Below the pieces are notes generated by a model. That model searched no databases. It was not told the origin of the DNA and saw only the letters and a program-made list of their open reading frames with translations. This document shows positions 6,608 through 8,829 of a DNA stretch of 64,000 nucleotides, piece after piece; positions within the stretch are counted from its first letter, which is position 1; each line of letters starts with the position of its first letter. The translations under genes and the position numbers were made by a program. Source of the DNA: Escherichia coli (GTDB lineage Bacteria; Pseudomonadota; Gammaproteobacteria; Enterobacterales; Enterobacteriaceae); NCBI RefSeq assembly GCF_003334305.1, contig NZ_QOWS01000012.1; one strand, written 5' to 3'.

Positions 6608-7429
6608 ATGAGCGATATGCACTCGCTGCTGATAGCGGCAATATTGGGTGTGGTCGAAGGATTGACAGAATTTCTGCCGGTATCCAGCACGGGCCATATG
6701 ATTATTGTCGGTCACTTGTTGGGGTTTGAGGGCGACACGGCGAAAACCTTTGAAGTTGTGATCCAGTTAGGATCAATTCTGGCGGTAGTAGTGATGTTCT
6801 GGCGGCGTCTGTTTGGCCTGATTGGCATCCACTTTGGCCGCCCGTTGCAGCACGAAGGTGAAAGCAAAGGTCGTTTAACGCTGATCCACATTTTGCTGGG
6901 GATGATTCCGGCGGTGGTACTGGGGCTATTGTTCCACGACACGATTAAGTCATTGTTTAACCCGATAAATGTGATGTATGCGCTGGTCGTTGGCGGTTTG
7001 TTGCTGATTGCCGCCGAATGCCTGAAGCCGAAAGAGCCGCGTGCGCCGGGTCTTGATGATATGACCTATCGTCAGGCGTTTATGATTGGCTGTTTCCAGT
7101 GTCTGGCGCTGTGGCCGGGTTTCTCCCGTTCCGGGGCCACCATTTCAGGTGGGATGCTGATGGGCGTGAGCCGTTACGCTGCTTCCGAGTTCTCGTTCCT
7201 GCTGGCGGTACCGATGATGATGGGCGCAACGGCGCTCGATCTCTACAAAAGCTGGGGCTTCCTGACAACCGGCGATATCCCGATGTTTGCCGTTGGGTTT
7301 ATCACCGCTTTTGTGGTGGCGCTGATAGCGATTAAAACCTTCCTGCAATTGATTAAGCGCATTTCGTTTATCCCGTTCGCCATTTATCGCTTTATTGTGG
7401 CGGCTGCGGTGTACGTCGTGTTCTTTTGA
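6608..7429 (+). CDS. uppP: Undecaprenyl-diphosphatase (BacA/UppP)
   Basis: ORF 6605 starts TTG; ATG at 6608 gives [30 protein letters not shown] (273 aa). Confidence 0.9.
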
Positions 7430-7454
7430 TTGAGAAAAGGTTCGGGAGCAGGCC

Positions 7455-7565
7455 TGGTTTTCTCCCTCGCTCTGTAGGGAGAGGGCCGGGATGGGGTGAT
7501 TGTTCGCACCGGTGCTGGTCTGTTCCCCTCACCCTAACCCTCTCCCCGAAGGGGCGAGGGGATGG
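7455..7565. repeat. GC-rich composite palindromic intergenic element (several nested hairpins) between convergent uppP and cca
   Basis: gggagagggccgggatggggtga (7477-7499) is an imperfect inverted copy of tcccctcaccctaaccctctccc (7524-7546); local hairpins tctccct/agggaga, gcaccggtgc, ccctctcccc-gaa-ggggcgaggg. Confidence 0.5.
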
Positions 7566-7590
7566 TTCGTGTTAACGTTTAGTTTTATAC

Positions 7591-8829
7591 TCAGTCAGGC
7601 TTTGGGCAACGTTGTTCCTTCCAACTGGCTACCGCCGCAATCCGCCGTCGGGTCAGCTCCTCGCGAATCTCCACACCTTTAAATCCCGCTTCAACGACCG
7701 CTTTTGTCGGCACTGACTGCGCCACTTCCCAGGCTTCGCGCAACCAACGGCCTTGCGGGTAGTCCGCTGATTCAAAACCGGTTCTGCCGCGTACGTCAGC
7801 CTCGCTGGTCAGCGCCAGTTGCTCGACACGCTGCGGTTTACGCCAGGCATCGATGGAATCAAATAATTTGACGATGGTTTTTGGGTTCAGCATTGGGAAG
7901 GTGTGGATGAGATCGTGAAACTCAGCCACCAGTCTGGCTAAATCGCGAATTTCATTTGGCACGCGCAGACGCTGGCATAGTTGTTCCACTAACTTAACAC
8001 CCGCCGGGCCATGCCCATGATGACGCGGCCAAAGTTCTGGCGGCGTCAGTCCTTTACCGAGATCGTGGCATAAAGTTGCGAAACGGACATCAACCTGCGG
8101 ACTCAGCATCGCCGCCATTGAGAGCGTCATTAAGGTATGAATACCCGTGTCGATTTCCGGATGCCACCTGGCAGGGGCCGGAACGCCAAACAGGGCGTCA
8201 ATTTCCGGGAATAAAACGCGAAGTGCACCGCAATCGCGCAGTACCTGGAAGAACACCTGGGGATTGCGGGTGGTGAGGGCGCTTTCCGTCTCTTTCCATA
8301 CCCGTTCAGGCGTCAGGTGTTCCAGTTCACCCGCATGGGTCATCTCGCGCATCAGCGTCAGAGTTTCATCGGCAATACGAAAACCGAGGTGGGCATAACG
8401 CGCAGCAAAACGCGCCACGCGCAGAACGCGTAACGGATCTTCGCCAAAAGCGGGGGAAACATGGCGCAACAGACGATTTTGCAGATCGCCCAGACCGTTG
8501 TACGGGTCGATAATCTCGCCGTTATCGTCCTGAGCCAGCGCATTAATGGTCAGATCGCGACGCTTAAGATCATCTTCCAGCGTGACATCCGGTGCGGCAT
8601 AGCAAGTAAAACCGGTGTAACCGGAACCGGATTTCCGTTCGGTACGTGCCAGCGCATACTCTTCATGCGTTTGCGGATGCAGAAACACAGGAAAATCGCG
8701 GCCTACCTGCTGGTAGCCCGCGTCGAGCATCTCCTGTGGCGTACTGCCGACCACCACCCAATCTCTGTCTTTGACCGGTAGCCCTAACAATGCATCCCGA
8801 ACAGCACCACCGACCAGATAAATCTTCAC
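7591..8829 (-). CDS. cca: CCA-adding tRNA nucleotidyltransferase with HD domain
   Basis: 412-aa [32 protein letters not shown]-terminus. Confidence 0.95.

What the first reader, a model, noticed from the sequence alone, without database searches (positions are those of the whole stretch)
7455..7565. GC-rich nested palindromic element in the uppP-cca intergenic gap
The 160-bp gap between convergent uppP and cca is dominated by runs such as gggagaggg, ccctctccc, ggggtgagg and ccctcaccc. They form at least three local hairpins and a longer imperfect inverted repeat (7477-7499 versus 7524-7546). This is not a classic REP (no GCCGGATG core) and looks like one of the GC-rich mosaic intergenic repeats of enterobacteria. 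It probably acts as a bidirectional terminator or mRNA 3' stabiliser but could also bind a protein.
Basis: seen in the sequence. Interest (0 to 1): 0.3.

Follow-up and report, generated by a model that had tools for sequence, protein, structure and literature searches.

The report
BoxC triplex-motif repeat pair, already catalogued
The GC-rich palindrome between uppP and cca is an ordinary, already catalogued copy of the E. coli BoxC (PIT/TMECO) intergenic repeat, present at this site in only about a quarter of E. coli strains and not shown to regulate anything.

Summary
The 161-bp uppP-cca gap holds nested inverted repeats, is 64% G+C against 50% for the window, and belongs to a multi-copy family (median 16 places per E. 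coli genome).

It is a known repeat: BoxC, also called PIT or TMECO. The published consensus CCCTCNCCC-N3-6-GGGNGAGGG-N3-GGGNGAGGG matches once in the 64-kb window, at 7526-7560 on the minus strand. That copy is a 'type A mm' unit. Facing it at 7464-7499 on the plus strand is a decayed 'type B' unit. The two are separated by a 24-nt spacer that is conserved among paralogous pairs. This is the inverted A+B pair architecture described at five K-12 loci.

The orthologous copy in strain IAI1 is entry 211 of Holder et al. 2015, Supplementary Table S8.

The site is polymorphic. About 23% of 5,426 complete genomes carry this cassette. K-12 has three REP units there instead, and shorter alleles also exist.

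There is no canonical terminator on either strand. According to Holder et al., published tests of PIT elements found no promoter or terminator activity. The best reading is a structure-prone, unstable intergenic repeat whose RNA hairpin sits in both 3' UTRs only incidentally.

Novelty: already known. Interest is low.

The parts
6608..7429 (+). uppP/bacA (undecaprenyl-diphosphate phosphatase), left flanking gene; stop codon at 7427-7429
   Evidence: ORF list. RefSeq matches are annotated bacA.
7591..8829 (-). cca (CCA tRNA nucleotidyltransferase), right flanking gene; stop codon at 7591-7593
   Evidence: ORF list. RefSeq matches are annotated cca.
7438..7586 (.). Allele-specific cassette. This is the whole interior of the gap. 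It has no homology to the K-12, NCTC86, AH21F008 or clone D i14 alleles. Homology stops 8 nt after the uppP stop codon and resumes 4 nt before the cca stop codon.
   Evidence: Alignments A1 and A3. Span classes 287/297/365/371/388/395 come from the flank-only query.
7457..7571 (.). Composite BoxC inverted-pair unit as conserved among paralogous loci: GTTTTCTCCCTC ... GAGGGGATGGTTCGTG
   Evidence: Alignment A4 of six loci, 79% mean column identity. blastn paralogue matches cover 7448-7569 and 7457-7562 at 83-87% identity.
7464..7499 (+). Decayed type B unit (CCG second loop): CCCTCGCTC-TGTA-GGGAGAGGG-CCG-GGATGGGGT. It has one mismatch in the C block. The third block is damaged by a G>A change and a 1-nt deletion relative to IAI1.
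   Evidence: Sequence. The G blocks match the consensus only with 3 mismatches. Comparison with IAI1 and paralogues.
7500..7523 (.). Central spacer TTGTTCGCACCGGTGCTGGTCTGT, containing the perfect palindrome GCACCGGTGC (7506-7515). It is conserved among paralogous pairs.
7525..7560 (-). Intact type A mm unit: CCCTCGCCCC-TTC-GGGGAGAGGG-TTA-GGGTGAGGGG. It is identical to Holder 2015 Table S8 no. 211 (IAI1).
   Evidence: Exact match to the published consensus at 7526-7560, with 0 expected by chance. Table 1 and Table S8.

Best explanation
This is a copy of the BoxC repeat of E. coli. The same repeat is also called a PIT element (potential intrastrand triplex) or the TMECO triplex motif. Here it is in the 'tandem inverted' pair configuration.

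Anatomy:
- An intact type A unit lies on the minus strand (7525-7560).
- It faces a mutationally decayed type B unit on the plus strand (7464-7499).
- A conserved 24-nt spacer separates them.
- Together they form a composite of about 115-125 bp that recurs as a whole at other loci.

At the uppP-cca site the composite fills nearly the whole gap between the two stop codons. It does so in only about 23% of E. coli genomes. Other lineages carry REP/BIME units or a short allele there.

Shown here: family membership, copy number, the architecture, the allelic replacement, and the clustering of within-lineage differences in the G/C runs.

Inferred:
- The element has no dedicated regulatory job at this locus.
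- It persists as a structure-prone, recombination- and slippage-prone intergenic repeat.
- Because both convergent genes lack a canonical terminator before it, it is probably transcribed into both 3' UTRs. There its long hairpin may incidentally hinder 3' exonucleases, as REP hairpins do.
For: Family membership:
- The published consensus matches exactly at 7526-7560 (-), with 0 expected.
- The sequence equals K-12 'type A mm' units apart from one loop base.
- The IAI1 orthologue, NC_011741 3284648-3284683, is catalogued as TMECO 211. It lies inside the 98.8%-identical full-length match H2.

Architecture and copy number:
- The A+B inverted pairing is as published for five K-12 loci.
- The composite, including spacer and short flanks, is conserved at alx-sstT, ygfF-gcvP, fepB-entC, hrpB-mrcB and gldA-yijF.
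- The family is multi-copy: 78,151 places in 5,408 genomes, median 16 per genome, nearly all chromosomal.

Polymorphism:
- 1,260 of 5,426 genomes have the full cassette.
- The flank-only query gives spans of 371, 388, 287, 297, 395 and 365 bp.
- K-12 has three REP units at this site, and K-12 Table 1 lists no TMECO there.
- Differences within the BoxC-allele strains sit in the left G-run and in a 6-nt CCCTCA deletion.

Function and context:
- There is no terminator-like site within the units.
- As reported by Holder et al., PIT elements showed no promoter or terminator activity in Hoyne & Maher 2002, and TMECO loci are more variable than control intergenic sites.
Against: - Function was not measured here. 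Absence of a regulatory role is inferred from family-wide negative results, which I read only as summarised in Holder 2015. Those tests may have used isolated units rather than the composite.
- Predicted hairpins are significantly more stable than shuffles, so an RNA-level role cannot be excluded.
- The left unit fails the strict consensus, so 'pair' rests on alignment to paralogues.
- The mechanism of spread is unknown. No target-site duplication or cognate enzyme was found.
- Holder's 'instability' may partly reflect repeats simply sitting in already variable spacers.
Confidence: 0.85

Rival explanations
1. The element is a bidirectional intrinsic terminator and/or a selected 3'-end mRNA stabiliser for the convergent uppP and cca transcripts.
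For: - It sits exactly between two convergent stop codons.
- RNA folds are strong: -71.6 kcal/mol (z = -3.0) and -56.8 kcal/mol (z = -2.3).
- The consensus 33-bp hairpin is kept in all six paralogues.
- REP hairpins are known to stabilise upstream mRNA (established knowledge; cited).
- The alx-sstT paralogue's right end gives a terminator-like hit.
Against: - No U-tract follows any of the element's hairpins on either strand in the window. The single weak hit, 7442-7457, lies outside the repeat units and is no more than shuffles give.
- PIT elements had no terminator or promoter activity and no effect on RNA polymerase (Hoyne & Maher 2002, as summarised).
- The family has no orientation bias and lies more often upstream of ORFs.
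- About 77% of genomes have other cassettes here.
- There are 0 compensatory pairs among the paralogues.
Confidence: 0.15
2. The element acts at the DNA level. The G-rich strand of each unit folds into an intrastrand purine-motif triplex, or the pair extrudes a cruciform, when the DNA is single-stranded or supercoiled. This stalls replication and promotes slippage and recombination, so the element behaves as a local mutagenic hotspot.
For: - TMECO type A mm oligonucleotides form stable triplexes in vitro (Tm about 74 C), and TMECO loci are more variable than controls (Holder 2015).
- This locus has at least six length alleles.
- Changes within the lineage cluster in the G/C runs.
- DNA folds of the 99-nt core are -22.7 and -23.6 kcal/mol (z = -2.1 and -2.6).
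Against: - In vivo DMS footprinting and double-stranded CD/NMR did not support triplex formation in duplex context.
- The left unit here is degenerate and would make a weaker triplex.
- REP-carrying alleles at the same site are also length-variable, so the variability may belong to the spacer rather than to BoxC.
Confidence: 0.3
3. The element is a non-autonomous mobile element (MITE-like). The two units act as terminal inverted repeats, and the element inserted into the uppP-cca spacer in one E. coli lineage.
For: - The terminal arms are inverted repeats.
- The whole composite recurs at unrelated loci at 83-87% identity.
- There is presence/absence polymorphism.
- Copy number per strain ranges from 1 to 30.
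- In Mitsuaria, inverted units flank variable inserts as TIRs would.
Against: - No empty site differing only by the element was found. The other alleles are replacements.
- No target-site duplication is evident.
- No cognate transposase is known.
- Holder et al. found no link to transposons, phages or plasmids in E. coli, and only 43 of 78,151 places are on plasmids.
Confidence: 0.2
4. The element is a specific protein-binding site, for example for a nucleoid protein or a regulator.
For: The stems are highly conserved while the loops vary, across very distant taxa. That pattern could reflect recognition by a conserved factor.
Against: No binding protein is reported in the literature found. The flanking genes show no functional coherence. 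Nothing here tests binding.
Confidence: 0.05

Closest known systems
BoxC / PIT element / TMECO triplex motif of E. coli (Bachellier et al. 1990s; Hoyne et al. 2000, J Mol Biol 302:797; Hoyne & Maher 2002, J Mol Biol 318:373; Holder et al. 2015, NAR 43:10126, PMC4666352)
   Same: - The three-block consensus matches exactly for the minus-strand unit.
- The TTA loop (type A mm) and CCG loop (type B) are as published.
- The inverted A+B pairing with a spacer of about 27 nt is as published.
- The location is intergenic, and the family is dispersed and multi-copy.
- The locus is strain-variable.
- The IAI1 orthologue is listed as TMECO 211.
   Different: - This copy is absent from K-12, which has REPs at the site.
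- The type B partner is decayed below the strict consensus, so Holder's catalogue lists this locus as a single unit.
- The first loop is TTC rather than the K-12 variants TTT, CTT, TCT and others.
REP / PU / BIME elements
   Same: Both are GC-rich palindromic intergenic repeats that often lie just after stop codons. REP units occupy this same spacer in K-12 and most other E. coli. The REP RNA hairpin is known to protect upstream mRNA from 3' exonucleases.
   Different: The window's gap has no GCC(G/T)GATG core and no sequence similarity to the K-12 allele. REPs have cognate RAYT transposases and known IHF, gyrase and Pol I interactions. None of these is known for BoxC.
MITEs such as ERIC/IRU (127 bp) and Correia elements
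   Same: The size class is similar (about 110-125 bp). Both have terminal inverted repeats, a long hairpin, dispersed intergenic copies, and presence/absence differences between strains.
   Different: No TA target duplication was seen, no parent IS or transposase is known, and the termini are themselves three-block triplex motifs. Similarity to the ERIC consensus was not tested here.
RU-3 of Delihas 2007 (103 bp, E. coli/Shigella)
   Same: It is an E. coli intergenic repeat of about 100 bp with a long stem-loop.
   Different: The published RU-3 sequence is a pair of REPs (gccggatgcggcg...) and is unrelated to this element.

Membership tests
BoxC / PIT / TMECO | Three-block motif CCCTCNCCC-N3-6-GGGNGAGGG-N3-GGGNGAGGG (Holder 2015 consensus) | tested here: met
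   Exact match at 7526-7560 (-), the only one in 64 kb, with 0.00 expected. The facing unit at 7464-7499 (+) fails the strict pattern: 3 mismatches in the G blocks and 1 in the C block.
BoxC / PIT / TMECO | Type A (TTA) or type B (CCG) second loop; inverted pairs always combine A with B | tested here: met
   The minus-strand unit has TTA and the plus-strand unit has CCG. The rule is stated. Paralogous pairs are aligned.
BoxC / PIT / TMECO | Dispersed, multi-copy and intergenic in E. coli chromosomes | tested here: met
   78,151 places in 5,408 of 5,426 genomes, median 16 per genome, with 43 on plasmids. The copy is intergenic here and at all six aligned loci.
BoxC / PIT / TMECO | Already listed in the family's catalogue | tested here: met
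   Holder 2015 Table S8 no. 211: NC_011741 3284648-3284683, with identical sequence. It lies within the orthologous match H2.
BoxC / PIT / TMECO | The G-rich strand forms an intrastrand purine-motif triplex in vitro | not testable with these tools
   Published for consensus oligonucleotides by CD and NMR, with Tm 70-82 C. ViennaRNA models hairpins only.
REP / BIME | GCC(G/T)GATG core within a 35-40-nt imperfect palindrome | tested here: not met
   There is no core in 7430-7590, against 15 cores elsewhere in the window. The K-12 allele of this gap does carry three such units.
Rho-independent terminator | GC-rich hairpin immediately followed by a U-tract on the transcribed strand | tested here: not met
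   There is one weak 5-bp candidate at 7442-7457 (+), upstream of the repeat units. None was found on the minus strand. The count is not above shuffles.
MITE | Terminal inverted repeats | tested here: met
   Arms 7464-7479 / 7545-7560 (75%) and 7477-7499 / 7524-7546 (74%).
MITE | Target-site duplication, and an empty site differing only by the element | tested here: not met
   The other alleles are replacements with unrelated sequence, and no flanking direct repeat is shared with an empty site.
MITE | Cognate autonomous element or transposase | not tested
   None is known from the literature read. No search was made.
Any Rfam RNA family | Match at or above the gathering score | tested here: not met
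   Only sub-threshold miRNA-like hairpin hits were found, at most 21 bits against thresholds of 40-110 bits. Nothing in the gap reached the gathering score.

The most novel reading that the evidence does not exclude
The BoxC inverted pair would be a mobile cassette that competes with REP/BIME units for the same stop-codon-proximal 'landing pads'. It would be moved or copied by a still unknown, structure-specific mechanism or enzyme that recognises the three-block motif.

Observations that leave this open:
- Motifs with identical stems but free loops are found in Methylomirabilota, Burkholderiales (Mitsuaria) and Ca. Contendobacter.
- More than 120 IMG/VR contigs also hold the motif.
- This spacer has been swapped wholesale between E. 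coli lineages.
Probability: 0.1. Interest if true: 0.55.

Novelty: already known. Interest (0 to 1): 0.12.

Why it matters
For annotation, this gap should be labelled BoxC/TMECO (inverted pair, type A plus a decayed type B). It should not be treated as a candidate terminator, sRNA or new repeat family. Nothing here changes what is known.

The one mildly useful point is that the uppP-cca spacer is a clean natural allele series: a BoxC pair, three or more REPs, one REP, or a short allele, all between two essential-pathway genes. That series could serve to test whether BoxC and REP cassettes are functionally interchangeable at 3' ends. It could also test whether BoxC raises local rearrangement rates, which Holder et al. 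left open.

Tried and rejected
1. Rfam. There was no family match. The miRNA-like and antizyme-FSE hits (at most 21 bits, E 0.2-8) are generic GC hairpin matches. The whole-window gathering scan found nothing in the gap.

2. RU-3 of Delihas 2007 looked promising as a 103-bp E. coli repeat. Its published sequence is a REP pair, so it was rejected.

3. First literature searches with 'box C' mostly returned DnaA or rRNA boxC papers. The family was identified through Petrillo 2008 and Holder 2015.

4. I searched Holder's supplement for bacA, cca and uppP and found nothing. The locus was found through IAI1 coordinates instead.

5. I looked for an empty site or a target duplication by comparing six alleles. 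There was none, only replacements.

6. I looked for covariation supporting an RNA structure among six paralogues. There were 0 compensatory pairs, and the sequences are too similar to be informative.

7. I checked for orientation consistency of a T-run on the right flank of the composite. It is present in the alx-sstT and gldA-yijF copies. It is not consistent with gene direction at ygfF-gcvP or fepB-entC, and it has diverged in the window copy. So a built-in terminator is rejected.

They show breadth but not a representative taxonomic distribution.

Full report
OBSERVATION

The window around the finding is E. coli. The gene uppP/bacA ends at 7429 on the plus strand and cca ends at 7591 on the minus strand, leaving a 161-bp gap between two convergent stop codons. 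RefSeq matches annotate the flanks as bacA and cca.

The quoted runs were checked against the sequence:
- GGGAGAGGG (7477), CCCTCTCCC (7538) and CCCTCACCC (7526) are present.
- 'ggggtgagg' is not exact. The plus strand has GGGGTGATT at 7493, and the minus strand has GGGTGAGGGG.

It also reports three more arm pairs. A perfect palindrome, GCACCGGTGC, sits at 7506-7515. No GCCGGATG core lies in the gap. G+C is 0.64 against 0.50 for the window. Predicted RNA folds beat dinucleotide shuffles on both strands, at -71.6 kcal/mol (z = -3.0) and -56.8 kcal/mol (z = -2.3).

WHAT IT IS

blastn of the gap against 5,426 complete E. coli genomes finds 78,151 places in 5,408 genomes. The median is 16 per genome and the maximum is 28. 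Almost all are chromosomal. The element is therefore a dispersed repeat. Rfam has nothing for it.

The literature identifies it. Petrillo et al. 2008 list BoxC among the known E. coli stem-loop repeat families. Holder et al. [quoted passage not shown] Their consensus is CCCTCNCCC-N3-6-GGGNGAGGG-N3-GGGNGAGGG.

That consensus matches exactly once in the 64-kb window, at 7526-7560 on the minus strand, with 0.00 matches in 100 shuffles. The unit reads CCCTCGCCCC-TTC-GGGGAGAGGG-TTA-GGGTGAGGGG. This is Holder's 'type A mm' class and differs from K-12 entries only in one loop base.

Facing it on the plus strand, 7464-7499 reads CCCTCGCTC-TGTA-GGGAGAGGG-CCG-GGATGGGGT. This is a type B unit (CCG loop) that has decayed. 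It has one mismatch in the C block, and its G blocks match the consensus only with three mismatches.

Holder et al. report that at five K-12 loci two units sit in inverted orientation, and that such pairs always combine a type A with a type B unit. The element here has that architecture.

Aligning the window copy with four K-12 pairs (alx-sstT, ygfF-gcvP, fepB-entC, hrpB-mrcB) and a gldA-yijF copy from strain JCH8249 shows several things (matches):
- The whole composite is one conserved unit of about 115-125 nt.
- That unit includes the spacer, with consensus TAAATGTTCGCACCGGTGCTGGCCTGTT.
- It also includes a few bases outside each repeat unit.
- Mean column identity is 79%.

ALREADY CATALOGUED

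Strain IAI1 carries this cassette at 98.8% identity (H2; alignment). Holder's Supplementary Table S8 lists entry 211 as NC_011741 3284648-3284683, CCCTCGCCCCTTCGGGGAGAGGGTTAGGGTGAGGGG. That is the orthologue of window 7525-7560. Only one unit is listed there, which agrees with the left unit falling below the strict consensus.

THE LOCUS IS POLYMORPHIC

Only 1,260 of 5,426 genomes hold at least 80% of the 161-bp gap. A query made from the two flanks alone matches all 5,426 genomes. In a spread sample of 60 genomes it gives several span classes:
- 371 bp, this allele;
- 388 bp, the K-12 and O157:H7 class;
- 287-288 bp, for example clone D i14;
- rarer spans of 297, 395 and 365 bp.

Alignment shows that homology stops 8 nt after the uppP stop codon and resumes 4 nt before the cca stop codon. 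Everything in between is allele-specific:
- K-12 has three REP units.
- AH21F008 has a longer REP array.
- NCTC86 has one REP.
- clone D i14 has one short REP-like palindrome.

K-12's TMECO list has no entry at this site. No allele is an 'empty site' that differs only by the BoxC element, and I see no target-site duplication.

Among strains with the BoxC allele, the few differences are concentrated in two places:
- The left G-run (7488-7497). The window differs from IAI1 by a G>A change and a 1-nt deletion.
- A 6-nt CCCTCA deletion in strain UTAK-13.

This pattern fits slippage in the G/C runs. Carriers of the allele include IAI1 and O104:H4. From my own knowledge these belong to phylogroup B1, so I infer, without having tested it, that the allele marks a B1-like lineage.

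HOW IT LIKELY WORKS

Terminator reading. The consensus scan finds no hairpin followed by a T-run within the repeat units on either strand. The only hit is a 5-bp stem at 7442-7457, and that is no more than shuffles give. Holder et al. summarise Hoyne & Maher 2002 as follows: PIT elements block DNA polymerase in vitro but had no effect in vivo. They showed no promoter or terminator activity and no effect on RNA polymerase, reverse transcriptase or conjugation. The family shows no strand bias and lies more often upstream than downstream of ORFs. Some paralogues have a T-run after the right end, and the alx-sstT copy gives a terminator-like hit. However, that feature is not oriented consistently with transcription at other loci, and it has diverged in the window copy.

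RNA-structure reading. RNAalifold on six paralogues gives a 33-bp hairpin with no compensatory changes. This is uninformative, because the sequences are nearly identical.

DNA-structure reading. Single-stranded TMECO oligonucleotides form very stable purine-motif triplexes in vitro. In vivo DMS footprinting and duplex CD/NMR did not show triplex formation. TMECO loci are significantly more variable between strains than control intergenic sites. The allele series and the changes in the G-runs seen here are consistent with that, although the REP alleles at this site vary too.

Conclusion. My best-supported reading has three parts:
- This is a structure-prone, unstable intergenic repeat with no dedicated function at this locus.
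- It is probably co-transcribed into both 3' UTRs.
- There its hairpin may incidentally slow 3' exonucleases.
The identification is shown. The functional statement is inferred.

COMPARISON AND NOVELTY

- The element is a member of BoxC/PIT/TMECO. The consensus, loop types, pairing rule, copy number, intergenic location and catalogue entry are all met. Triplex formation cannot be tested with these tools.
- It is not a REP/BIME, because the core is absent.
- It is not RU-3, whose published sequence is a REP pair.
- It resembles MITEs in size, terminal inverted repeats and patchy presence. It lacks a target duplication, a simple empty site and a known transposase.
- Novelty is 'already known', and interest is low.

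SEEN IN PASSING

- a Methylomirabilota MAG, with +/- pairs and 29-31-nt spacers, as in E. coli;
- about a hundred loci in Mitsuaria chitosanitabida, where -/+ pairs flank variable 46-116-nt inserts as terminal inverted repeats would;
- Ca. Contendobacter.

Those contigs hold 116 distinct variants, with G+C from 0.32 to 0.74. The stems are conserved and the loops vary.

Holder et al. already report the motif in more than 260 genomes. They also state that they found no link to phages or plasmids in E. coli. IMG/VR contigs may include host flanks of proviruses, so I do not read the viral hits as evidence of phage carriage.

The most novel reading left open is a mobile cassette that competes with REPs for spacers next to stop codons and is moved by an unknown structure-specific mechanism. 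I put its probability at about 0.1.

Noticed in passing
window 7438-7586 versus L002 (K-12), L004, L005, L006, L007: The uppP-cca spacer is swapped wholesale between E. coli lineages, giving at least six length alleles. They are the BoxC pair, three REPs (K-12 and O157:H7), a longer REP array, one REP, a short REP-like allele, and a BoxC allele with a 6-nt deletion. Homology breaks within 4-8 nt of both stop codons.
   Followed up: yes
window 7488-7497 and 7526-7531; L132, L133, L007: Among strains with the BoxC allele, the only differences are in the left G-run (GGGAT-GGGGT, GGGGTGGGGGT or GGGGTGGGGGG) and a 6-nt CCCTCA deletion in UTAK-13. This suggests slippage within the G/C blocks. The window's exact variant is rare: 26 records at 99% identity or more, against 1,330 at 95-99%.
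   Followed up: partly
L012-L019 (Methylomirabilota MAG), L020-L131 (mostly Mitsuaria chitosanitabida), L027-L029 (Ca. Contendobacter): The E. coli TMECO/BoxC consensus matches exactly in very distant bacteria. Methylomirabilota has +/- pairs with 29-31-nt spacers, as in E. coli. Mitsuaria has about 150 motifs, often as -/+ pairs flanking variable 46-116-nt inserts (some with internal tandem repeats), with termini GAAGACCCTCACCCC / GGGGTGAGGGTCTTC. That arrangement is MITE-like.
   Followed up: partly
L134-L253 (IMG/VR contigs): At least 120 IMG/VR viral contigs hold the motif: 149 motifs, 116 distinct, G+C 0.32-0.74. Fifteen carry the exact E. coli type A core GGGAGAGGGTTAGGGTGAGGG. Holder et al. 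reported no link to phages. These contigs may be provirus flanks or misbinned host DNA.
   Followed up: no
L001 2603-2625 (K-12-type alx-sstT copy); window 7557-7586: In several paralogues the right end of the composite is followed by GAGCAC/GAGTCC and a T-run, and the alx-sstT copy scores as terminator-like (GAGGGGACTGACCGAGTCCTTTT). The window copy has diverged there (GATGGTTCGTGTTAACGTTTAG), and the feature is not consistently oriented with transcription at other loci.
   Followed up: partly
window 15445-15594 and 15821-15970: Two tandem Sib antitoxin RNAs (RF00113) at 142 and 148 bits. This is the sibD/sibE-type pair of type I toxin-antitoxin loci.
   Followed up: no
window 24663-24811 (+) and 58888-58951 (-): An FMN riboswitch (RF00050, 121 bits) and the ES173 sRNA (RF02753, 99 bits) were found by the gathering-threshold Rfam scan.
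   Followed up: no
window, 15 positions (for example 27783, 34487, 36532, 51761/51783, 55409, 62699): The pattern GCC(G/T)GATG or its complement (the REP core motif) occurs 15 times elsewhere in the window. The window has this one BoxC locus and no other match to the BoxC consensus.
   Followed up: no
window 7426-7575 (+) and 7500-7682 (+): Two short ORFs (49 and 60 aa) run through the repeat and translate it into P/G/E-rich peptides (...HPNPLPEGARGW...). They are almost certainly spurious, but are the kind of ORF that gets called as a hypothetical protein over BoxC copies.
   Followed up: no
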